A stretch of 64,000 nucleotides of DNA from Tricharina praecox (GCF_024521635.1 NW_026250443.1:1-64000); one strand, 5' to 3'. Positions 200 to 18,553 are shown, counted from the stretch's first letter. A program made the numbers and translations. Notes: a model not told the origin generated them from the sequence alone.

Positions 200-1550
200 G
201 GTACAAATGCAACCATCAGTGACCAAAATGCAAGTGAATTCCCAGTAGCATTCCAAAAAGCATTTCTCTGTGCAAAAGGGCCCTCTCGAGTACGATGGAG
301 AGCAATCTGGGTGAATACAACTGGCTGTCCATTCTTCCAGTTGTTGGCGCCTGCAGCATCGATTCAAATAAAGAAGTCACAAAGCTGGTTCGATGCAGCA
401 TGATTGGGCATCTCCATTTTGACATTTCGAGGGTCTAGATAGTAGCCAGCCCAGTGAAGTGGTTTCAGTTGTCATTCCTGCCGTTCGATGAGATACTGAA
501 GTATAAAGGCTGCAGGGACTCAGGTGCTCAGGCTACGTGTTGTTGAAGATGTGTACAGATGGCACCCCAACATGGAATGACATGGCCAACATGGCTAATC
601 TCTGCCTCCAAAGCGTTCTGTCCCTCACAAATAAGTTGTAGAATATCGAGGGACTGCGACAAGTTGTTCCAAAACAGACGGCTGTGTACCAGTTGTACGA
701 TATCGTTTGGGGGACCGCTACGGTTATCAAAAACATAGCTCTGTAGCGGTTGCTGTGATCCCAAGACTGACGAAGCCGAGTTGTGTTGTGATCCCCATCG
801 TGTGATGACTGAAGCAAGAAGCGAAAGATGTTTGCTGTAATGATGTAGTTGATGGCCTCGAAGAATCGCAGACTGAAGATATGCACCGCGGAAGTAAGAC
901 ACAGTCTTTCTCACTCCCTGACTGACGATCTGAAACCAGAGAATCTTCACAACCACGTCTTTGATTAAGAGTTGCAGACCATGTGAATCACATGGAACAC
1001 ATAGTATCCGAATATCTGAAAACGGCTGTTCGAAATCCTCTCCAAGTAGCCTCCATACAGAGAACATCGTAGAGCAGGTATCAGTGGCAACAGAATTGAT
1101 CCGGTGGTAGTCTCCGCCGGTAATAACTCTCGACGGCGCTAGGATCCAATTGGTGTAATTGCGTGCAATAAGGTTACAACTGCCAACATCTTCTACCCTG
1201 TGAAAAAAGGGCGTATGGCTGGTATTGGCACTCATGCTAATGAGACGGTGCTTTGTAATGTCGGTGCTTTCGTGTGTGATGGTGTACATGCCTCATCCGT
1301 ATTGCTTTTCTCCCACGCCGCCGCGAGTTCGTCTGTACTCAGCGTGAAGAAATGTTCTGGCCAACGTAGTTCTGCCGGTAGGTACGTATGAGCGGTTGAG
1401 GTCTTCGAGAAACTGCTTCACGTAATAGTTGTTGAGGAGGTTGAACGGTAGGTTGGCGGTGAACATGACTAGTGCTAATGCCTGGTCGATTTCCTTCTTC
1501 TCGGCCGAAGATAGGACTTTGATGAGTGTAATCGCGTCTTCATATTATCG
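200..1550 (-). mobile_element. Degenerate hAT-superfamily transposase remnant
   Basis: Minus-strand translation gives hAT-type motifs: ANLPFNLLNNYY, CDSHGLQLLIKD, SVITRWGS and LHWAGYYLDPRN (~430-465), interrupted by stops and frameshifts. No TIRs recognised; boundaries approximate. Confidence 0.8.
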
Positions 1551-4486: not shown

Positions 4487-4570
4487 TCCGGACGCCTTCT
4501 CCGAACACACGGAGGTAGGTTACCGTCGGCCCTGCCATAGACTGTCAGTGGCCGGGGTTCAGATCCTCCG
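4487..4570 (+). promoter_or_regulatory. Conserved upstream motif pair of secreted paralog 1
   Basis: TCCGGACGCCTTCTCCGA (4487) and GCCGGGGTTCAGATCCTCCG (4551), also present upstream of paralogs 2 and 3; TATAAA-like box near 4732. Confidence 0.6.
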
Positions 4571-4851
4571 GAGCTACTCGTGGGTAACCACCATGCGAGC
4601 TCCCCGATTGCGGAGAGCGGGTTATCATCGGGGGATCGGTTGGTTGGGGGTGTCTACGTAGGAGGCGGGCAGAGTGTGGGACGAGAGCAAGAGCTTGGCG
4701 AAGAGGTTCCTCTCGACACGGAGAGCGTGGATATAAATGTTCTCAAACGCCGCTTTCAGAGCGTATTCCACATCCACCAGCTCGCACATTACTCCTACCA
4801 GATCTTGATACTCCTTTGCACAACTCCTCAATATTCTACACAGCCGTCAAC

Positions 4852-5419
4852 ATGCAGCTGTCGCTCTTCTCCACCATCACCCTGTGGCTTGCGGTCACCG
4901 CCATTGCCGCCCCTATCACCGAGCATGGCAAAACTACGCAGCTATGTAAGTTCGTGTGCGATGAAGCCGCTGCCAGTACCAACTCGGCCACCGAGGATGG
5001 CGAAACTACGCAGCTATGTACGCTACCCCACTGAACCGCACTTCCTTCATCTTCGCCGGTATGTTGAGTAGAAGGAATATTCACTGACCCAAGCTAAAGC
5101 CACGGCCGGCAACGGAGAAAGCCTGTCCCACGAGTCAGCGTGCACTATAGGCGATGAGGAAATCATGCACGGGAACGCCGACCACGAATTCAAAACAATG
5201 TGCGAAGAACAAGGCGGAAAGCTGTGACAGGAGTGCTTCCTCAACGGCGACGAGTTCGTTCCCTTAGCCACAGATTTGATCCCCGACGAGTGCGCGTGGA
5301 CTTGCTACAGGGAGGGTGGGACGCTGCAGGACGTCGTGCCCAGTGCTCCGGCCGTCGGGAAGCGCCAGATCCGCTTTGGCGACCCAGAGTGTTTGCTTTT
5401 GGCGTGTTTCGGACAGTAG
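4852..5419 (+). pseudogene. Secreted Cys-module paralog 1 (one module plus short C-terminal peptide), in-frame TGA at 5225
   Basis: Signal peptide MQLSLFSTITLWLAVTAIAAP; GT donors at 4946/5018, acceptor ~5093-5099. Exon 2 reads ...ESACTIGDEEIMHGNADHEFKTMCEEQGGKL*QECFLNGD...WTCYREGGTLQDVVPSAPAVGKR|QIRFGDPECLLLACFGQ*, homologous to paralogs 2 and 3. Confidence 0.75.
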
Positions 5420-6328
5420 CAGAGGAGGTGTGGATCTGTGGCAGTTTTGTGTGTTTAGTTTGTACAATATCAATGTACTTTGTTTGAACTTTGTACAGAA
5501 TAGCTGAATGGGAATAATGTGGATTCGAATGCGTTTGCCCAGACTAATCAATGGATGCCCGGCTCGTGTTGTTCTCCGATGGTCTATTCCGAACTACGGG
5601 CAAGAATTAGTATGTCAAACCTTTGCCGCCGCACCCTTAGTTGACCAAAGTTTTTCAACAGAGTCCGCGATCAGGTGAGTTCCATACCGCGTAGCTCAGC
5701 GATAGTCTCCGTCATCACGGCAGTGGGATTTGTTCCTGCAGCTGTGCGACATAGCTGTGGTGATACTTCGCGTTATAATGCTCGGAGGTTTGAGGAAAAT
5801 GGGTTAAACACAGACAAAAAACCACCGGCACGACTGCATTGCGTAGGTAGATACTCTAAGACACTCCTTCCCACAGCACACCGTCCCCGAACTGTAGCGC
5901 GAGCACCCGGTTTCAGTCGAAGTCGCGAATTTACCTTGCCATCATCGATATCGTCATCGGCTGGTAAACGCGGTTTACCCATTGAGCACTGCTCGAACAC
6001 TGCTCCGTGTACGTCTAGTGTAATAGTTAGTCCCCGGAATCTCTATCGATCGGGATAACTTACAGTTCCCTGATCGCGCTGTCTCTCCGGCGAGATCCCA
6101 CTAGTCATCGCATCTCCGAAATCTTCAGCCCACGCCAGTATCCCTGCATTGATTAGTGTACCATAGTCGTGTTAGTGTTCCGAAGCTATCCCATCTCCCA
6201 CGTGCCACCGCGGGGGCCAACCTCGCAGTCCATCAGCGCACACGCAAGGAGCAACAAGCGATATCTGTCATGTGCTTCCGCTGTGCGGATTCCCAAGTTG
6301 ATTGAGGCGGTCGGCGGCGCCGCTCCGC

Positions 6329-6412
6329 TCCGGACGCCTCCTCCGAGAAACACCATGTCGGCGCCGGTGCCGGCAACCCTTGCAATCGGCTTGCCGGGGT
6401 TCGGATTCTCCG
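6329..6412 (+). promoter_or_regulatory. Conserved upstream motif pair of secreted paralog 2
   Basis: TCCGGACGCCTCCTCCGA (6329) and GCCGGGGTTCGGATTCTCCG (6393); TATAAG near 6586. Confidence 0.6.
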
Positions 6413-6702
6413 AGGCTTATCGTAATATCCGGCCCCAGAAGGAGGACTGGTCCAGGTCTAGGTGATCGGCTTGTCGTCGAGTAGAGGTGATTTTGGCCAA
6501 GTATCTAGGTGGGAAGCAAACAACATGCAGGGAGAGGGTGAAGAGCTCGGTGAAGAAGCGACTCAGGCCGCGAAGGGGGTGGACATATAAGATAATCTTT
6601 CGCGCCGACTGCAGAAAATATTCCCCATCCAACATCTCGCACACTCCACTCCTACAACGATCCCAATACTCCTCCTCGATACTTACATACACCTCCATCA
6701 AG

Positions 6703-7161
6703 ATGCAATTCTCACTCTACTCCCTCGCCGCCATCTTCTTTGCGGTCAATGCAATTGCCGCGCCGCTCGCCGACCACGCTGAATCAATGCAGCCAGGTAA
6801 GTCACTCCCCGTCTTCTCCGCCACCGTCCCTTTCACCATCGGTGGCTGCGGGAAGAAGCAATTACTAATTCGTGACCCAGCCGTCGACAAGCGACAAGCA
6901 ACGGACCGTGTCCGGGTAGTCTGCGATTTGGGCCATAACTCGAGGGGGGAGAACCTGCCGGCGACCCAGCGTTACAAAAAGTACTGCGAGGACCGGGGCG
7001 GAAGACTGCGCCAGGAGTGCTTCCACGACGGCGTAAACATCGAGCGCGATCTGATGCCCGAGTTCAATAGATTCCCTGAGCTCCACGTCGAAGACTGCCG
7101 GAGACATGGCGGCGAGTTGCGCGACGTCGCGCTCAGTGGCCCGGCTGTTGCGAAAAGGTAG
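6703..7161 (+). CDS. Secreted Kex2-processed Cys-module protein, paralog 2 (single module, intact)
   Basis: Signal peptide MQFSLYSLAAIFFAVNAIAAP; intron 6797-6880 (GTAAGT...ACTAAT...CAG); propeptide ends AVDKR|Q; module C-x20-C-x10-C-x25-C ending GPAVAKR-stop. Confidence 0.85.
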   Translation: MQFSLYSLAAIFFAVNAIAAPLADHAESMQPGKSLPVFSATVPFTIGGCGKKQLLIRDPAVDKRQATDRVRVVCDLGHNSRGENLPATQRYKKYCEDRGGRLRQECFHDGVNIERDLMPEFNRFPELHVEDCRRHGGELRDVALSGPAVAKR

Positions 7162-8003
7162 GTGGACGAGGCGGAAGGAAAGGTGGAAGAAGGGAAGGGC
7201 TGGGCGGAGGAGAAGATTAATGTATGAATGGTCGAGAGCTGAATAGCTGGGGAATGTTTCTTTCCGAAGTGGTCGTACATATTTCACTTTGTTCAATACC
7301 TACTTACTTTGTAATTGTTTGCGGAAATGGATTTGGATGGCAATGTGAATTCGAGTCCTTTCGTCTTGGTGTCTCGCTTCCACCGGTTCCGGACAGACGA
7401 TTACTTGGTCCGTGTCCGTCTACGACACGGTCTGATACTGTAAGTCGGAGGCGGGTCTCGGGTAGCAAGCTACAATGTATGTAGTGGGTGACGGAGAGGT
7501 TCCACCCAGGTGAGACCGACCGTGATGTTGGAGGAGACGTCATCTCTGTCATGTACTCGGCTATTATTTATCTCATGATTCCACTAGTATTACTGCCGGA
7601 CGGATTGCTTCCTCTCCTCAGTATGTATCGAAGGTCATGGGGAGGTTCAGGTTGGCGAAACCGCCGAATATATCGTAGGTATCGTTGGTGGTACATACCT
7701 GGACTAGTAGTTAAGAAGAAGCAGAGACTGCCGGTGACCAACACGCGCCTTCCAGCAGTGCTGCGTCACGATCCTCAGGAACTGAGTGGCAGCTAGGTTG
7801 TGAGCTCCTGGAGACATGTCTCAGGATTCAGCTCATCCCGTCCCTGTACTCTCTGGATCGGCAAGACCATCCCATCACAGCGCATCCTTCCGCACGCACG
7901 AAAGCAGCGCCAGCGCCGTCCCCGTCTTTTCTTATATTTGAGCCTCCATACATCCGTGGTGCGGCGGCGATCATGTATTATCCGAGCGGTTTACCGGTCC
8001 CGC

Positions 8004-8048
8004 TCCGGACGCCCGCCTCCGAAACCGTGCCGGGGTTCGGGTCCTCCG
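8004..8048 (+). promoter_or_regulatory. Conserved upstream motif pair of secreted paralog 3
   Basis: TCCGGACGCCCGCCTCCGA (8004) and GCCGGGGTTCGGGTCCTCCG (8029); TATATAAG near 8250. Confidence 0.6.
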
Positions 8049-8397
8049 AAGCTAGCCAGATAACTGAACATTGCGTCCGAGCGCCTACGGGACGGCTGGG
8101 CTCGATCTGGGAGCACGTTAATCGTTGGGGTCGGTTGTGTGAATGTAGCTAAGTCACTCGGTGTGCGTAGGAAGCAGGATGAAGACCGTGGGAAAGCGGA
8201 GTGGTCGGTGAAGAGACGGCTCTGGTCGCCAACGGGCTGGAGATGTCGGTATATAAGACGTCCTCTCCCGCTCCCTTCAGTGTATTCCTCATCCAGCCAC
8301 TCGCACACGCTTCTCTCCACGGTCTCCAGGCTCCTGCAGGATCTCAATACTCGATTCTCTCGCACCCTTCGGTCCACAACACAACACATCAGTCAAG

Positions 8398-9331
8398 ATG
8401 CAGACCTCATTCTCCACCCTCATCACGCTGTGCCTCGCCGCCAGCGCCATCGCCGCCCCAGCGCACCTCTGTAAGCTTCCCTCCAGTGCAACCAGTCATT
8501 ACCCCAAGCTAACTCCCTCCCCCAGTCACGAAGCGCCAATCCGTACCTGCAGCATTCTGCGACCTCGCGCCCGGCATCAGCATACCCGGGCCTGCGACAC
8601 GGGAGTTCCAGCAGGGGTGCACATCACGCGGGGGCATGCTTCGCTAGGAGTGCTTCAGCGGCGACAGATTTGTCCCCTTACCCTTCCCAACGAATGTGCC
8701 ACAACCTCCGCACGATGTGCGAGAGTCGGTCTGTCGCAATGCCGGCGGCGAGCTGCGGGATGTCCTCGGCCCCGCCGTGGAGAAGCGGCAATCCGAAGGG
8801 CTTCCTGCATTCTGCACATTCGGGACGCCGATCGACACGGCCGGGCCTGTGACGCGGCAGTTCCAGCAAGATTGCACCTCGCGCGGGGGCACACTGCGCC
8901 AGGAGTGTTTCCGGGACGGCGGACGCGTGTTCTTTGCCAACCCGTTTGGGCGACAGCTCCCGCGTAAGCAGCGAGAGGAGGAATGCCGCAACAACGGCGG
9001 CGAGATGCGGGATGTCCTAGGCCCCGCCGTGGCGAAGCGGCAAATCGAAGAGCCTATTGCAATCTACAGAACCTCGTCGGGAATCGACTCGCACGGGCCT
9101 GTGACGCGGGAGTTCGAACAGGTGTGCGAGGAGCGCGGGGGCATGCTTCGCTGGGAGTGCTTCGCCGACGGCAAAGTCGTGTACTTTGGCTCCCCGTTTG
9201 GGCCACACCTCCCGGACAACCTGCGAGATGAGCAATGCCGCAACAGCGGCGGCGAGATGCGGGATGTCCTCGACTCCGCCGTGGAGAAGCGACAAGACGA
9301 TGATATGACGGATGAGGGGGAGGACAGTTAG
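8398..9331 (+). CDS. Secreted Kex2-processed repeat polyprotein, paralog 3 (three 84-aa modules plus acidic tail), in-frame TAG at 8645
   Basis: Signal peptide MQTSFSTLITLCLAASAIAAP; intron 8471-8525 (GTAAGC...GCTAAC...CAG). KR|Q junctions with Q codons at 8537, 8789, 9041, 9293 (exact 252-bp period); tail QDDDMTDEGEDS*. May be a pseudogene or an edited gene. Confidence 0.85.
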
Positions 9332-11269
9332 GAGGAGGATGCGTAGGCGGTGGAGCTGGCTTGGGTTCATGAATTGTACACACATGTTTTTTCTCTTTCG
9401 TTTCAATGAATATCCAAGTACTTTGCAACTGTTTGGCAGAGCGAAGTCGGATTGTAATCGATGGTGCGAAGTAATTCTTTCGGCTTAGTGATGTCCGAAC
9501 GCCTGCCGCTCGATCCGTATCCTCCACCCGCCTCCAAGCCAATCTGATACTGCGAAAATGCAGCGCGTCATGCTGGTCTATAGTATCAGCGCAGCGACGA
9601 AGAGGATCCAACGACGGGTTGCACCAGCTCATTCCGCATACCTCAACCACGCGCATGTACCGCCTCTAAATACCACTACCTTTCCCATGTTACAGTAGCA
9701 GTTGCGACATTTGAATCAGGGTCATTGGGGGCCGTCGAGGTTGAGATCTACGATGCCGGGATCAATGCTGTCTAACTGGGGTTCGCCGTCGCTGTCCACG
9801 TCTTCAGGATTCTCTTCGCTTCAATCTCCCTCACTCCCATCCACCACTACCACCACCACAATCTCCACCTCTTCAAACGCCTGGGATTTCGATCCGGGAC
9901 TGATGCACTCGACTACCGGCATAGTTCCGATGCAGGAAATCATCTACCGGTACTTCTGCTCTGCCCGGCATCAGAGTCGTCGGCGGCGAGAAATGCCAGT
10001 CCAAAACCGAGCGCCCACTCACGGCGAATCCTTCGGCATCGGCGAAGCGATCGAGGTCCGTACGGTACCGTATGTAGACTACTAGTCATGGCCGTTGTCC
10101 ACCGTTGTAACTTGTCCACCGTTGTCCACTCTCCACCATCATCTCTACTTTACATCTTAACCATCTTCCAAATACCACTCTCGAATTCGGATCGTATTTT
10201 AATAATTGAATCACAATATTTCTGTGCTGCCTTACAAGACGTTCTCTTTCCTTGCCTTGAATTCTCCTCCGCGGCACATGGTGAAGTGTGACTTTTGCGA
10301 ACAACTGTAGGTACCATAGCAGTCACCGTCGCCGTCTCCGACCCACTGTGCTTCCAAACATCTTCGAGAAGAAGAAGCCTGCAAAGCGCGGGTTGATCTC
10401 TGCCTCGCTCCTGCTGTTGGTTTTATCGACAGAGCGCTACGACGCGCTGTCGCTGGTATCATTGTCGGCCTGAGAGCGCTTGATGTGCTCATGTCTGTGG
10501 CTCGTGAACCAACTTCCTTCCACCGCCCATCGTATCTCACCCGTGAACACTGAATAGGTGCTTACGTTGCGGTAACTGAAAGCAAGTATCTAGATTTGAT
10601 TTAACTAAGAATGAGCCTTCGGCCACGCTTAGAAGAGATGAATGGGCGGCTTCCTTCTGAAGTTCTCTGCTTGACAAAAAGTCCACTAGTCCCTGAGTCC
10701 GGTCTGTTGCGATGCGCATTGCCCTGAACCTCAAGCATTCGCAGACGCTTCAGAGTGGCGGAAACGTCCAGAGCAAAAATGTGAATGGAGGGGGGCTAAT
10801 GTTGCGGCCTATCTTCTGCTATACAGGTTATCTGCCAGCCCTCCGCGGTAGCAGTGGCAGTGAGGAAGAACGCATGCGTTCTCTGCAGGCGTGGCTCCAA
10901 AGATGAGGACGAGAAATCCTTGAGCCACTCCGTGAGGGCCTCAAGTTCTTTCTCAGAAAATCATGTTAAGCTCTGTCGTGCTAGGGATAGAGCATTGCAA
11001 TTATTGCTCTTCAACGAGAAATTTCTAGTAAGCGCGGTGGGGGGGGGGGTTTGCTTCCGAATTTGCGTTACGATTGACGAGTTCGATTGATCTGACATGG
11101 CCCACATATGCAGCTGCCACCCGGGCCCTAACCTAAAAAAAAGCAGCGCCGAGCAGCGAGCAGCGAGCAGCAGCAGCAGCAGCAGCAGCGAGCAGCAAAG
11201 CAGGCGGGCAGATGATGCGGGAAAAGTAGAATGGGACGTTACGGTTGGCAAATAACTCATGTTTTACGG

Positions 11270-11865: not shown

Positions 11866-11960
11866 TCGGTGAAGCACAGGCCTGGGAATAGTCTTTGTCG
11901 GGCCCGGAATATCAAGGACTGCAGGAGGTATTGTAGGTAGTAGCCGAGCCTGGGCGAGGA

Positions 11961-12495
11961 TTGAACCTACCCCCCCACATCGCCTCGTGCATCAATCGCA
12001 ACCTCCACCTGTCGCTCACACACTCGATCTCCATCACCCGTGCCCTCGTAGAACGGCAATTCCAGCCGCCAAACTACAAGCCGTTCAACAACCTCTCCCC
12101 GGTCGTGTCAGTGCAGCAGAATTTCGATTCCCTCGGGTTCCCCTCCGACTACCCGGGCCACAGCAGGACGGATACGTACTACATCAACCGTGAGACGGTG
12201 CTGCGCACACATACGTCCGCGCACCAGGCGGCCAGCTTTTCTGCGGGCGAAGAGGGGTTTACCATCAGCGCGGATGTGTACCGGCGTGATGCAATCGACC
12301 GAACCCATTACCCCGTGTTCCACCAGATGGAGGGAGCGCGGATGTGGTCGCGCAAGGACGGGGACGTGGCAAAGATGGTCAGGGAGGATATCGAGCGGCT
12401 ACCGAAGCATAATCTAAAAGTGGACGATAGCGGGCCGGTTTTCTATGCGGGAAACCCGCTACAATCTGAGCATAGCACAGAGGAGGCTGTTGGTG
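11961..12495 (+). pseudogene. MSF1: Internal fragment of mitochondrial phenylalanyl-tRNA synthetase
   Basis: QNFDSLGFP..YPGHSRTDTYYIN..VLRTHTSAHQ and ADVYRRDAIDRTHYPVFHQMEG. No ATG or presequence, no C-terminal half; conserved HPGR reads YPGH. Confidence 0.88.
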
Positions 12496-13279
12496 GAGGC
12501 CTAGGAAGCTACTTCAGTCTGTCGCGGCAACCGTCGAGTGGAAGTCGTCCGCTGTGTACGGACTTCGGACGTTTCCCGAGTGAGCGCTTGTGGAGCAGAC
12601 TTTTTGCCATGAATGTTCAAAAGACCCACAGCCGAACGCTCAGGGGAAGACTGCAGTACCTCTTCAAGTGGAGGGATCTCCGGCACCGGTCAACGCACAA
12701 TGCTAACATAACAATTCACCAAAGGAAACCGACAGTATTGAAGTCCTCAACGACATCCGCTACTACGACTCGACAGCGAAATGTAACAAGAGAGAGGGAG
12801 CATGCACGTGGCAAACAGTGATGTGATAGTACCCCGCGTTCTGAAGCCAACATCAGACGAGATCTAGACTCGTTTTCTCTCCTCCTTCTCTGGCAGCTGC
12901 TGTACCGTCGACGGGAGGACGGCCAAATCTCCACCTACTCACGGAGAATACGGTGACCCGGATCCAGAGCTGAGCTTTGAGCTCAATTCAGAGGAAACTT
13001 AATGTCAGACGACGCACACGCCGAGCTCCCCACGACACGGTACGGGACTACTGCTGTTGGCTTTTCCGCACCCAGACTCCCCGGATCCCCTCCCGCTCAG
13101 AGCCATCTCTACACCAGCAGCCGCACTCCACACCGCCCCCCTCCCTGTCATCCCCAAGTCCACACACATGCGCGAGCCCGCTCAGTGGAGATGGAACAAT
13201 GCAACCAAGAAGCTTCATATCGTGATCAGCCTGGTTTTTGAGTCATTGCCAAAGCAATAACACAGACTCATTCCAGACT

Positions 13280-16738: not shown

Positions 16739-18553
16739 CTACAGTAGGCGCTCAGTGAACACGCAGCGAATCTCCCCCATCTCCAACGTGAATGTGTCGA
16801 TAGTTTTTGCGAACGCGGCGTCCCTGTCACCGACGAGGGATATGTCAAAGCGTCGAGCTACCGCTGCGCCAACGCTGTGGAGCTCCGCCAGTGCTAGCGG
16901 TCGGCCGACGCATTGGTAGCGGCCTATCCAGAAGGGCTGGAAGACTGCCTTCATCTCCGCGAGTTTCTCCGGGGTGGAGATGAGCCACTTGAGGGGATGT
17001 CAGTGGTGGTGAGGGGGGGTGGAGGGTCAATCGGAGAAGGGGGACGAACTCGCTCGGGACAAAACTCCTCCGGATTATCGAACCATCGCTCATCCCGCAT
17101 CGCCACCCACAGTGGGAAGTACACATTGACCCCGCCCGGAAGGAAGGTTCCATCGTCGAGGGTGACTCCTTCCGGCGGGATGTAACGTGACACACCACTC
17201 GGGACAGCGGTGTTGAGGCGAAGCGCCTCGTTGATGCATGCCGACAGGTATGGCGATTCGGTGCTGTCGGCGGGGAGGGAGTCGAGTTCGGCTTGGAGCT
17301 TGGAGAGTGTCTCGGGGGAGGAGCCGAGGTATGTGAACAGCGCGATGAGGGTGGCGGCGGTAGTGTCGCTTGGTTCCGTCAGCATGCAATCGGAGCGAGA
17401 GGGAGAGAAATACTACCTCCCAGCGACAATAGCGGTCCTCGAATCGCCTCTCAACGGGACGTGGTGGGGACCTATGTTCTTTGGTTCCGCCTCCAACAAC
17501 ACCTCAAAGAGATCACTACCCATCTCCCCCATGCCCCTCCTCTTCCTATCGTCGACGCGCTCCTTACACCATTCCAAGAACTTCATATGCTCCTTCCCTG
17601 CGGCGCCCAACATCTCCATGAGCAGCAGCAGCCACGGCGTATGTCCCAGCAGCGCGATGCTCCTCATGCTCGCGTGCGTCATTCGCAGAAAGTAATCGCT
17701 TCCGTCCCTGCCGCCTTTCTCCAGCATACCAAAGTCTCTACCGAAGGTAAACGCGCCCATCACGTCAAAAGTGTAGTAACTAAACCACGCAGTAATATCC
17801 TTCTCCCTCTCCCCCTCCGCCAGTTTCTCAAGCAGCATATCCGTATAGTGCTTCACTCGCGGCGCATACGCCTTCACCGCGTCCGGCGTGAACGCCTTAT
17901 CCCATACCCTCCGCCGCACCGAGTGCGTCTCCCGATCCTTCACTAGCTGTATCGACGAGTTTCGGTTGCCGTTGTTGTACCACGAGCCTTTCGCGGCCTT
18001 GCCGAGGACCGGGAGGAGCTCCGGACGCAGAACGATCAGCTCGTTTGGGCCGCTGCGAACGATGTCGCCGTACTGGGCGTGCCACCGTTGCTGTACGCGG
18101 AAGTATTGTCCCCGTGCTTGCGTGTAGGCGTGAATGTAGTAGAGTTTTGAGAGGCGGGTGGGGCTGGGCCCGGGGAAGCGCGAGACTGGGAGAGGTTAGG
18201 AGGTGTGTGTATGCACTGGGGCGAGCGGGAGGTATCATACGTGGGTGAAAGTAGAGACGGTAGACAAAGATGCTCGCCGCCATTGCGGAGAGGAACGATG
18301 TCGTTGCGAGGGTAACGGTGGAGACTGTGTGCGACAACCCGGCAGCGGTCGATAGGTAGAGGAGAGCAGCGAGCATGGATGGAGTGCCTAACAGCACCAG
18401 GAAGTAGGTCCACACATGGGCGTCCCGCTCGCCGTGGATGAAGTAGGCGTGATGCGATATCAGTCCGAGCACGGCTGCCCCGAGGCAGAGCTGCGATGCT
18501 GGCAGCTCGGACACGAAGGACCCGAGAGTGTGCAAGGCGGCAGTGAACGACAT
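16739..18553 (-). CDS. Cytochrome P450 monooxygenase (multi-exon)
   Basis: N-terminal TM, FHPLSRFPGP, YGDIVRSGPNEL, RRRVWDKAF, I-helix IVAG|SDTT across an intron, EALRL, PER, heme motif PFWIGRYQCVG. Confidence 0.95.

What the first reader, a model, noticed from the sequence alone, without database searches (positions are those of the whole stretch)
4852..9331. Tandem family of secreted Kex2-processed four-cysteine module genes (1+1+3 modules)
Seen: three same-strand paralogs, each with a signal peptide ending AIAAP, a phase-1 intron at an equivalent position, and five copies in total of a ~84-88-aa module C-x19/20-C-xxx-GG-x-L-R-x-E-C-F-x21/25-C-xxx-GG-x-[LM]-x-D-V...AVxKR. Paralog 3 is a polyprotein with an exact 252-bp period and KR|Q junctions. 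Established: KR is the Kex2 site and an exposed N-terminal Gln can cyclise to pyroglutamate. Many fungal Kex2-processed repeat proteins release short peptides. Inference: here each unit is a folded disulfide mini-protein with a conserved scaffold and hypervariable loops, released as a cocktail, as expected of effectors, antimicrobials or toxins. I do not recognise the domain.
Basis: partly seen in the sequence, partly recalled or inferred. Interest (0 to 1): 0.85.

Follow-up and report, generated by a model that had tools for sequence, protein, structure and literature searches.

The report
Orphan secreted Kex2-module genes, two broken
Three neighbouring genes of the post-fire cup fungus Tricharina praecox encode secreted, cysteine-containing modules of about 9 kDa bounded by Kex2 cleavage sites and unlike any known protein, but in this strain two of the three genes are interrupted by stop codons.

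Summary
The repeat architecture is real: three same-strand paralogs, five homologous 84-90-codon modules, and an exact 252-bp period in paralog 3. Spliced RNA contigs confirm all three introns and show that the genes are transcribed.

Module 3 also has Tyr in place of the first Cys. Only paralog 2 is intact.

These are real alleles, not assembly errors. The stops are present in the RNA contigs. Another soil haplotype reads CAG (Gln) at 8645 but has lost the paralog 1 start codon and 276 bp at the 3' end of paralog 3. Two other runs read Cys at 9066.

The public model of paralog 3 skips its TAG; the RNA contig is continuous there.

No Pfam family, no homologue outside this locus among 1.84 billion representatives, and no fold match.

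Best reading: a lineage-restricted, fast-evolving family of the Kex2-processed type, gaining and losing copies. Stop correction by sexual-stage A-to-I editing is untested.

The parts
4551..4581 (+). Upstream element shared by the three paralogs (GCCGGGGTTCrGAT.CTCCG..GCT), paralog 1 copy. The other copies lie at 6393-6423 and 8029-8059.
   Evidence: Direct-repeat family D11; alignment of the three upstream regions. That it binds a regulator is inference.
4732..4737 (+). TATA-like box of paralog 1 (TATAAA). The equivalents are 6586-6591 for paralog 2 and 8250-8257 for paralog 3.
   Evidence: Read. It lies in a block aligned among all three promoters. RNA contigs begin downstream at 4781, 6635 and 8308.
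4852..5017 (+). Paralog 1 exon 1: the signal-peptide-like leader (…AVTAIA|AP) followed by a 72-nt tandem duplication (4883-4948 and 4955-5020) that duplicates the splice donor.
   Evidence: (family D5). RNA contigs of X2 and X3 join 5017 to 5100.
5018..5099 (+). Paralog 1 intron (82 nt, GT..AG, phase 1).
   Evidence: Joint seen in X2 and X3 contigs (table 5).
5100..5419 (+). Paralog 1 exon 2: one module (to 5365, ending AVGKR), a 17-residue tail and the stop at 5417-5419. It is interrupted by an in-frame TGA at 5225-5227.
   Evidence: The TGA is unchanged in the X1 DNA contig and the X2 RNA contig (0 other letters).
5225..5227 (+). In-frame TGA at the Arg position of GGxLRQECF in paralog 1.
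   Evidence: (family D4 alignment).
6703..6796 (+). Paralog 2 exon 1: the leader (…AVNAIA|AP) and the start of the pro-peptide.
   Evidence: Identical to the annotated protein P0001.
6797..6880 (+). Paralog 2 intron (84 nt, phase 1).
   Evidence: Joint in X2 and X3 contigs, read with the cut 4 places to the right.
6881..7161 (+). Paralog 2 exon 2: the end of the pro-peptide (PAVDKR), one intact 88-residue module (6895-7158, ending AVAKR) and the stop at 7159-7161. This is the only uninterrupted gene of the three.
   Evidence: None of the 4 runs laid shows a coding difference here.
8398..8470 (+). Paralog 3 exon 1: the leader (…AASAIA|AP).
8471..8525 (+). Paralog 3 intron (55 nt, phase 1).
   Evidence: Joint in an X2 contig. 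One X3 contig retains the intron.
8537..8788 (+). Paralog 3 module 1 (84 codons), interrupted by TAG at 8645-8647.
   Evidence: TAG is present in the window, X1, X2 and X3; X4 reads CAG.
8645..8647 (+). In-frame TAG at the Gln position of GGxLRQECF. It is a segregating nonsense allele. The annotated model P0002 hides it in an intron for which no RNA contig shows a joint.
8789..9040 (+). Paralog 3 module 2 (84 codons, 4 Cys, intact).
   Evidence: AlphaFold2 model with pLDDT 74.0.
9041..9292 (+). Paralog 3 module 3 (84 codons). Cys1 is replaced by Tyr (TAC 9065-9067) in this strain; X1 and X3 read TGC (Cys).
9293..9331 (+). Acidic 12-residue tail (QDDDMTDEGEDS) and the stop of paralog 3.
9276..9551 (+). 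A 276-bp stretch missing from one X4 contig. It removes the end of module 3, the tail, the stop and part of the 3' UTR.
   Evidence: The loose end behind 9275 (table 7) matches the window at 9552-9581 exactly.

Best explanation
This is a tandem family of three transcribed genes restricted, as far as the searches reach, to Tricharina praecox (Pezizomycetes, Pyronemataceae).

Inferred mechanism. Each gene encodes a pre-pro-protein for the secretory pathway.
- Signal peptidase would cut after the leader …AIA.
- The Golgi protease Kex2 would cut after each (A/V)-x-K-R.
- Carboxypeptidase would trim the K-R.
- The new N-terminal Gln could cyclise to pyroglutamate.
- The released units would be alpha/beta mini-proteins of 8.6-9.9 kDa with four cysteines, probably forming two disulfides.

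The family therefore belongs to the Kex2-processed class: paralog 2 is the pro-domain type and paralog 3 the repeat type. Its domain has no detectable relative and no recognised fold.

Evolution. The family looks like it is gaining and losing copies while diversifying fast. In the sequenced strain only paralog 2 can make a full module. Paralog 1 (TGA) and paralog 3 (TAG in module 1, Cys-to-Tyr in module 3) carry disabling alleles. Other haplotypes in soil carry different disabling alleles.

Shown: repeats, introns, transcription, the stops in DNA and RNA contigs, allelic variation, and the absence of detectable relatives. Inferred: secretion, Kex2 cleavage, pyroglutamate, disulfides, and an extracellular role in competition or interaction.
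For: Architecture.
- Repeat families and the 252-bp period.
- Module alignment with 17 invariant columns.
- tblastn between modules gives E 1e-8 to 1e-26, and no other copy exists in the 64 kb.

Transcription and splicing.
- X2 contigs show all three GT..AG joints; X3 contigs show the joints of paralogs 1 and 2.
- Contigs cover 4781-5513, 6635-7339 and 8308-9418.

The stops are real.
- TGA 5225-5227 lies inside an X1 DNA contig and an X2 RNA contig with 0 other letters.
- TAG 8645-8647 is present in X1, X2 and X3.

Allelic disabling variation.
- X4 reads CAG(Gln) at 8645.
- X4 also reads ATG>ATA, Leu>Pro and His>Tyr in paralog 1, and lacks 9276-9551.
- X1 and X3 read TGC(Cys) at 9065-9067.
- Paralog 2 has no coding difference in any of the 4 runs.

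Constraint and diversification.
- dN/dS is 0.27-0.78 for 8 of 10 module pairs. One pair is saturated at synonymous sites.
- Modules 2 and 3 give 1.73. The bootstrap 95% interval of dN-dS is -0.018 to 0.299, with 4.3% of resamples at or below 0.
- That pair differs by 23 transitions and 40 transversions.

Orphan status.
- Pfam gives nothing above threshold.
- The word-indexed search returns only the protein itself.
- The profile search of 1.84 billion representatives returns 4 hits at E<=0.001. Two are this locus's own proteins and two are unrelated repeat proteins.
- Two metagenome scans return none.

Fold.
- The module 2 model has pLDDT 74.0, the order strand-strand-helix-strand-strand-helix-strand, the four Cys at residues 9, 29, 40 and 66 each inside a strand or helix, and a tail below pLDDT 50.

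Class definitions were read in PMC6339444 and bioRxiv 10.1101/2020.05.27.120113.
Against: - No signal-peptide predictor, protease assay or proteomics was available. Secretion and cleavage rest on reading the sequence and on general knowledge of Kex2.
- Two of three genes cannot give the proposed products in this strain, so much of the 'family' may be dying rather than working.
- Both nonsense codons fall in adjacent codons of the most conserved motif. Simple decay does not predict this, and it could point to recoding.
- dN/dS above 1 for modules 2 and 3 is only marginal and could also reflect relaxed constraint.
- The models rest on a 5-sequence alignment and have modest confidence (pLDDT 62.3 and 74.0).
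- Orphan status refers to predicted proteins and JGI metagenome contigs. Unannotated DNA of related Pyronemataceae genomes could not be searched.
Confidence: 0.6

Rival explanations
1. Stop correction by RNA editing. The UAG at 8645-8647 would be an A-to-I editing site of the kind that corrects premature stops during sexual development. In fruiting bodies UAG would become UGG (Trp), and the three-module polyprotein would be made only then. Vegetative hyphae would make the truncated fragment or nothing.
For: - A-to-I mRNA editing during sexual development is reported in Pyronema confluens, of the same family. It includes stop-loss events and stops hidden in wrongly annotated introns (PMC5381528, passages).
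- Fungal editing prefers U at -1 and hairpin loops, and often hits UAG (PMC11156358, abstract in the listing). Premature-stop correction is described in PMC10776026.
- Here the target A has U at -1 and G at +1.
- The public model P0002 hides the stop in an intron that no RNA contig shows.
- Module 3 has TGG (Trp) at the same codon, inside a 30-nt stretch otherwise identical to module 1 (8627-8656 versus 9134-9163, family D4). The edited product would therefore match a residue the fold already tolerates.
- In a 51-nt fold, A8646 lies in a 4-nt loop.
- The TAG allele occurs in the window and in 3 of the 4 runs laid.
Against: - The RNA contigs of X2 and X3 keep TAG. Contigs drop rare variants and the tissue is unknown, so this is weak.
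- The hairpin is not better than shuffles (z -1.37; 22 of 200 shuffles fold as well), and it changes in an 81-nt context.
- An intact CAG allele segregates. The same gene also carries a Cys loss and, in another haplotype, a deletion. This looks like decay.
- The paralog 1 stop is UGA with G at -1, a poor editing context, so editing would not rescue paralog 1.
Confidence: 0.12
2. The whole locus is decaying. It would be a young, lineage-specific family with no present function, still transcribed from intact promoters while mutations accumulate.
For: - Two nonsense codons, a Cys loss, a start-codon loss, a Leu>Pro change in the leader and a 276-bp deletion were found among only a handful of haplotypes.
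- No relatives were found anywhere.
- dN/dS is near or above 1 for the youngest pair.
Against: - Paralog 2 is intact and shows no coding change in 4 runs.
- Older pairs give dN/dS of 0.27-0.78.
- 17 invariant columns persist across paralogs whose synonymous sites are near saturation.
- Promoter blocks are conserved.
- The 252-bp modules have no frameshifts.
Confidence: 0.15
3. The modules are divergent members of the KP6 killer-toxin / KP6-fold effector superfamily: small alpha/beta sandwiches with two helix-to-sheet disulfides. They would act as antifungal proteins, and like the viral KP6 preprotoxin would be cut by Kex2 into units of about 80 residues.
For: - In the wide structural search with the paralog 2 model, 3 of the 9 chains with Z>=2 were KP6-type: Zt-KP6-1 (6qpk_A, Z 2.6, rmsd 2.4, 41 aligned), KP6 alpha (1kp6_A, Z 2.4) and KP6 beta (4gvb_B, Z 2.2).
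- Size (about 9 kDa), two helices and Cys residues placed in a strand, helix 1, a strand and helix 2 resemble the description of the KP6 fold (PMC12382754, section 2.1; model).
- A Kex2-cut two-domain precursor is the KP6 architecture.
Against: - All Z values are far below the level the tool calls meaningful.
- The better model (pLDDT 74.0) gave 4 chains with Z>=2 and none was KP6-type.
- Foldseek gave no match at E<=0.001 for either model.
- In Zt-KP6-1 the third Cys is in beta-3, whereas here it lies in the first strand after helix 1.
- No sequence similarity was found.
Confidence: 0.08
4. The genes are precursors of small modified peptides (RiPP type, as for ustiloxin). Only short cores would be excised from each repeat.
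For: The layout fits: signal peptide plus repeats ending in KR. Kex2-processed repeat proteins include such precursors (PMC6339444, passages; PMC7329392, abstract in the listing).
Against: - The units are 84-88 residues, with predicted secondary structure and four conserved cysteines spread over the unit.
- KR occurs only at module ends.
- The neighbouring ORFs scanned gave only a tRNA-synthetase core and a cytochrome P450 some 7.6 kb downstream. No tailoring-enzyme family was found next to the genes.
Confidence: 0.03

Closest known systems
Kex2-processed repeat proteins (KEPs; Le Marquer et al. 2019, PMC6339444)
   Same: A signal peptide, at least three tandem repeats separated by KR, and repeats filling most of the protein, as in paralog 3. 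That survey lists motif sizes from 3 to 352 aa and includes a class above 51 aa.
   Different: Most characterised KEPs release peptides of 9-24 aa. Here the units are 84 aa, cysteine-containing and predicted to fold. The reading frame is broken by TAG in this strain. The repeat sequence matches none found in the searches.
Kex2-processed pro-domain (K2PP) effectors (SnTox3, ToxA, SIX1/4/6; bioRxiv 10.1101/2020.05.27.120113)
   Same: Paralog 2 has a leader, a short pro-peptide ending in an aliphatic P4 residue plus KR (PAVDKR), and then a cysteine-containing mature domain that makes up most of the protein.
   Different: The organism is not a known plant pathogen. The mature domain is unrelated in sequence, and cleavage is untested. 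Paralog 2 also ends in a second, C-terminal KR.
UmV-KP6 preprotoxin and KP6-fold fungal effectors (PMC12382754)
   Same: A Kex2-cut precursor yielding alpha/beta units of about 80 residues stabilised by disulfides. There are weak structural matches for one model.
   Different: The matches have Z of 2.2-2.6 only and were not reproduced with the better model. Cysteine placement differs and there is no sequence relation.
Premature-stop-codon genes corrected by sexual-stage A-to-I editing (Fusarium, Neurospora; PMC10776026, PMC5381528)
   Same: A UAG inside an otherwise conserved, transcribed ORF, hidden by annotators in a false intron, in a fungal family where such editing has been reported.
   Different: No edited read has been seen. 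An intact CAG allele coexists. The gene carries other disabling changes, and the second stop (UGA) is in a poor editing context.

Membership tests
KEP (Kex2-processed repeat protein) | N-terminal signal peptide | tested here: met
   Read directly: M-Q-x, a hydrophobic run of about 14 residues, then A-I-A|A-P with small residues at -3 and -1, in all three genes. No predictor was available.
KEP (Kex2-processed repeat protein) | At least three similar repeats separated by KR, RR or KK (pipeline rule) | tested here: met
   Paralog 3 has three 84-codon modules with KR after each and one KR before the first. Paralogs 1 and 2 have one module each and do not meet this rule.
KEP (Kex2-processed repeat protein) | Repeats make up at least 15% of the protein | tested here: met
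   252 of about 292 codons of paralog 3.
KEP (Kex2-processed repeat protein) | An uninterrupted reading frame through the repeats | tested here: not met
   TAG at 8645-8647 in the window, X1, X2 and X3. The X4 allele reads CAG.
KEP (Kex2-processed repeat protein) | Actual cleavage by Kex2 and release of the units | not testable with these tools
   Needs proteomics, a kex2 mutant or an in vitro digest.
K2PP effector | A pro-peptide of more than 4 residues between the signal peptide and an LxxR/KR/RR site, with the part after the site more than half of the secreted protein | tested here: met
   In paralog 2, about 16 residues ending PAVDKR precede an 88-residue module.
K2PP effector | Effector role in a host | not testable with these tools
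   No host or assay data.
KP6 fold | A four-stranded antiparallel sheet with two antiparallel helices on one side and two split beta-alpha-beta crossovers | tested here: inconclusive
   The models have two helices and 4-5 strands in the order (b)b-a-bb-a-b. Strand order in the sheet could not be read from the tool output.
KP6 fold | Two disulfides tying the helices to the sheet | tested here: inconclusive
   Cys 9, 29, 40 and 66 of module 2 lie in a strand, helix 1, a strand and helix 2. The pairing is unknown.
KP6 fold | Significant structural similarity to KP6 alpha/beta or Zt-KP6-1 | tested here: inconclusive
   Z of 2.2-2.6 with model 1. No such chain was listed for model 2. Foldseek found nothing at E<=0.001.
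Premature-stop-correction editing target | An in-frame UAG in a transcribed, otherwise conserved ORF, with U at -1 | tested here: met
Premature-stop-correction editing target | Target A in a hairpin loop | tested here: inconclusive
   It is in a loop in the 51-nt fold, but z is -1.37, and it is not in a loop in the 81-nt fold.
Premature-stop-correction editing target | A-to-G change in RNA of the sexual stage, absent from DNA | not testable with these tools
   Only assembled contigs of unknown tissue were available. They read A.

The most novel reading that the evidence does not exclude
The UAG in module 1 of paralog 3 would be a programmed switch. A-to-I editing in apothecia would turn it into UGG (Trp), the residue that module 3 encodes at the same codon within an otherwise identical 30-nt stretch. 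A three-module polyprotein of novel-fold mini-proteins would then be secreted only during sexual development. This would be the first premature-stop-correction target in Pezizomycetes and the first for a Kex2-processed secreted repeat protein.
Probability: 0.1. Interest if true: 0.65.

Novelty: new member of a known kind. Interest (0 to 1): 0.35.

Why it matters
- It adds an orphan, apparently species-restricted domain to the class of fungal Kex2-processed secreted proteins. It is a case where the released units are predicted folded mini-proteins of about 9 kDa rather than short peptides.
- The locus shows copy gain and loss in progress. One intact copy sits beside two transcribed copies that carry different disabling alleles in different haplotypes.
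- It corrects a public gene model that skips a stop codon by means of an intron for which no RNA contig shows a joint.
- The UAG offers a simple, testable candidate for stop-correcting RNA editing in an early-diverging lineage of filamentous ascomycetes.
- No function is established, so the wider importance is modest.

Tried and rejected
- Whole genome of the window: none is held, so other copies elsewhere in the genome could be sought only through predicted proteins.
- Pfam: the only row was DUF2321 at E 0.088, 12.9 bits against a cut-off of 24. Rejected as chance.
- Profile search hits P0003 (1054 aa) and P0004 (245 aa) are repetitive proteins matching 41-44 profile positions. Rejected as unrelated after reading them.
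- Metagenome loci: one search failed because the alignment had no conserved stretch. Paralog 2 alone gave 595 pattern matches and 0 confirmed. The alignment of paralog 3 modules gave 367 pattern matches and 0 confirmed.
- ESM Atlas: the best feature score was 0.79, below the level at which shuffled proteins often score. The structural rows had TM of 0.45-0.53 to assorted bacterial alpha/beta domains. Not used.
- Fold searches: Foldseek against the PDB gave no match at E<=0.001 for either model. The wide search gave a best Z of 2.9 (hydrophobin HFBII) and 2.7 (lambda Ea22 C-terminal domain). The KP6 lead from model 1 did not recur with model 2.
- Internal duplication of the module: profile-profile comparison of the N and C halves aligned only 15 columns around C-x3-GG-x-L-R (probability 21%, E 0.001). 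Suggestive, not established.
- RIP as the source of the stops: the locus indices are TpA/ApT 0.72 and (CpA+TpG)/(ApC+GpT) 1.08, the same as the whole window, and modules 2 and 3 differ by more transversions than transitions. Rejected.
- Selenocysteine at the TGA: rejected. The position aligns with Arg, not Cys, and, from recall, Dikarya lack the machinery.
- Sequencing runs: no listed holder is on record as RNA. X2 and X3 were treated as RNA because their contigs are spliced. X4 does not cover 5018-5494, so the TGA could not be checked in that haplotype. Depths were not used to rank genes.
- Earlier findings of this scan: nothing for this genome or for look-alike sequences.
- Literature: 0 papers hold the locus-tag prefix. 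One unrelated paper holds Kex2 + polyprotein + cysteine-rich + fungal + tandem.
- Supplementary tables of the KEP surveys were not opened.
- No complex prediction was run, because no binding claim is made.

Full report
**Source.** The intact middle gene is identical to a 124-residue hypothetical protein of Tricharina praecox (P0001). This species belongs to the Pyronemataceae, Pezizomycetes. No whole genome is held for the window.

**Anatomy.**
- Reading the region and translating it gives three same-strand genes.
- Paralog 1: ATG 4852, stop 5417-5419. Paralog 2: ATG 6703, stop 7159-7161. Paralog 3: ATG 8398, stop 9329-9331.
- Each begins with a hydrophobic leader ending AIA|AP.
- The repeat finders recover the five module copies. 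In paralog 3 they give a 252-bp period with 78% matches and no indels.
- The five modules align with 17 invariant columns: the cysteines, two GG pairs, L, ECF, DV and the AVxKR tail.
- tblastn of each module against the whole 64 kb finds the other four at E 1e-8 to 1e-26 and nothing else better than E 0.03.
- KR|Q stands at each module boundary of paralog 3 and before the paralog 2 module. Paralog 1 has KR only after its module.
- The three promoters share aligned blocks: an element about 300 bp upstream of each ATG, a TATA-like box, and a block where the RNA contigs begin.

- Paralog 1 reads GGKL-TGA-QECF (5225-5227).
- Module 1 of paralog 3 reads GGMLR-TAG-ECF (8645-8647).
- Module 3 has Tyr where the other four modules have the first Cys.
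- Only paralog 2 is uninterrupted.

**Expression and alleles.** One search for public runs gave five holders and four were laid.
- X2 and X3 hold spliced contigs. X2 joins 5017|5100, 6796|6881 and 8470|8526, each skipping a GT..AG stretch. X3 shows the first two joints, and one X3 contig retains the third intron. The genes are therefore transcribed and the introns are real.
- In paralog 1 the donor used is the second copy of a 72-nt tandem duplication.
- The X2 contigs cover both stop codons with no differing letter. X1, an unspliced DNA-like soil contig set, also covers both. The stops are therefore genomic and are carried into mRNA.
- X4, another soil run about 99% identical, reads C at 8645, giving CAG (Gln).
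- X4 also reads ATG>ATA at the paralog 1 start, plus Leu>Pro and His>Tyr in its leader region.
- One X4 contig leaves the window at 9275 and resumes at 9552. This is a 276-bp deletion of the end of paralog 3.
- X1 and X3 read G at 9066, giving TGC (Cys) in module 3. Four cysteines are thus shared by all five modules when the X1 and X3 alleles are counted, and the Tyr belongs to the window's haplotype.
- Paralog 2 shows no coding difference in any run.
- X4 does not cover the TGA.

**Annotation.** The profile search returned the public model of paralog 3 (P0002, 275 aa). That model joins …EFQQG directly to FVPLPF…, skipping the stretch that holds the TAG. The X2 contig is continuous from 8526 to 8703, so no RNA contig shows such a joint.

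**Relatives.**
- Pfam gives nothing above threshold.
- The word-indexed search of 5.8 billion clusters finds only the protein itself.
- A profile of the five modules, run against 1.84 billion representatives, gives 4 hits at E<=0.001. Two are this locus's own proteins and two are unrelated repetitive proteins.
- Two scans of JGI metagenome contigs confirm none.
- The Atlas gives no score above 0.79.
- At the level of predicted proteins the family is confined to this locus. Raw DNA of related fungi could not be searched.

**Structure.**
- AlphaFold2 with the five-row alignment gives pLDDT 62.3 for the paralog 2 module and 74.0 (pTM 0.56) for module 2 of paralog 3.
- The better model has strands 7-10 and 16-19, helix 23-31, strands 38-42 and 45-47, helix 59-68 and strand 72-75. 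The last six residues fall below pLDDT 50.
- The cysteines at 9, 29, 40 and 66 fall in a strand, helix 1, a strand and helix 2.
- The two halves share C-x3-GG-x-L-R, but profile comparison is weak.
- Foldseek finds no PDB match at E<=0.001 for either model.
- The wide search gives only 9 and 4 chains with Z>=2, with best values of 2.9 and 2.7.
- Three KP6-type chains appear for the weaker model (Z 2.2-2.6) and none for the better one.
- The KP6 fold as described in PMC12382754 is therefore a lead only.

**Evolution.**
- Nei-Gojobori estimates give dN/dS of 0.27-0.78 for 8 of 10 pairs. One pair is saturated at synonymous sites.
- Modules 2 and 3, the youngest pair (dS 0.20), give 1.73. The bootstrap interval is -0.018 to 0.299, and the pair differs by 23 transitions against 40 transversions.
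- This fits diversification on a fixed scaffold but is marginal.
- RIP indices are negative.
- The module products would be 8.6-9.9 kDa with pI 4.2-7.9, so they are not uniformly cationic.

**Comparison with known kinds.**
- Paralog 3 meets the operational rules for Kex2-processed repeat proteins, except for its broken frame. That class already spans motifs of 3-352 aa (PMC6339444).
- Paralog 2 meets the sequence rule for Kex2-processed pro-domain proteins (bioRxiv 10.1101/2020.05.27.120113).
- The neighbouring ORFs scanned gave only a tRNA-synthetase core and a cytochrome P450, so nothing suggests a peptide-modification cluster.

**The stops.**
- Both are C-to-T-type changes in adjacent codons of the most conserved motif.
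- The simplest reading is segregating loss-of-function alleles in a dispensable, fast-evolving family.
- The alternative is correction of the UAG by sexual-stage A-to-I editing. It is kept open for four reasons. Such editing is reported in Pyronema confluens (PMC5381528). UAG is a favoured target. The stop was hidden in a false intron. Module 3 carries TGG at the same codon within an otherwise identical 30-nt stretch.
- The local hairpin is not significant and no edited contig was seen.
- I give this alternative about one chance in ten.

**Verdict.** The thing is a new, orphan member of the Kex2-processed secreted-protein class with one working copy in this strain. Its function is unknown and is inferred to be extracellular.

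Noticed in passing
window 8612-8668 (relative to protein P0002): The public gene model of paralog 3 skips the stretch that holds the TAG by means of an intron. No RNA contig shows a joint there, and the X2 contig is continuous from 8526 to 8703.
   Followed up: yes
window 4883-5020: A 72-nt tandem duplication in exon 1 of paralog 1 duplicates the splice donor. Transcripts use the downstream copy (GTACGC at 5018) although the upstream copy (GTAAGT at 4946) looks stronger.
   Followed up: partly
window 8627-8656 and 9134-9163: Modules 1 and 3 share a 30-nt stretch that is identical except for A versus G in the TAG/TGG codon. Module 2 and the X4 allele have CAG there. CAG>TAG>TGG, or a short gene-conversion tract, could link the three states.
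   Followed up: no
window 4551-4581, 6393-6423, 8029-8059: A conserved upstream element (GCCGGGGTTCrGAT.CTCCG..GCT) with CGG/CCG triplets lies about 300 bp before each ATG. It may be a shared regulator site.
   Followed up: no
window 9276-9551: One soil haplotype (X4) lacks 276 bp, with ACT at both edges. This replaces the last residues of module 3, the acidic tail and the stop.
   Followed up: partly
window 528-1292, minus strand: An open frame of 254 codons with no Pfam match. Its nature was not examined.
   Followed up: no
window 11937-12821 (+) and 16951-18195 (-): These are fragments of a class II tRNA-synthetase (phenylalanine-type core) gene and a cytochrome P450 gene. They are ordinary neighbours, not obviously linked to the family.
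   Followed up: partly
window 5869-6014: A short X2 contig (155 nt, depth 3.8) lies between paralogs 1 and 2, where no gene was modelled.
   Followed up: no
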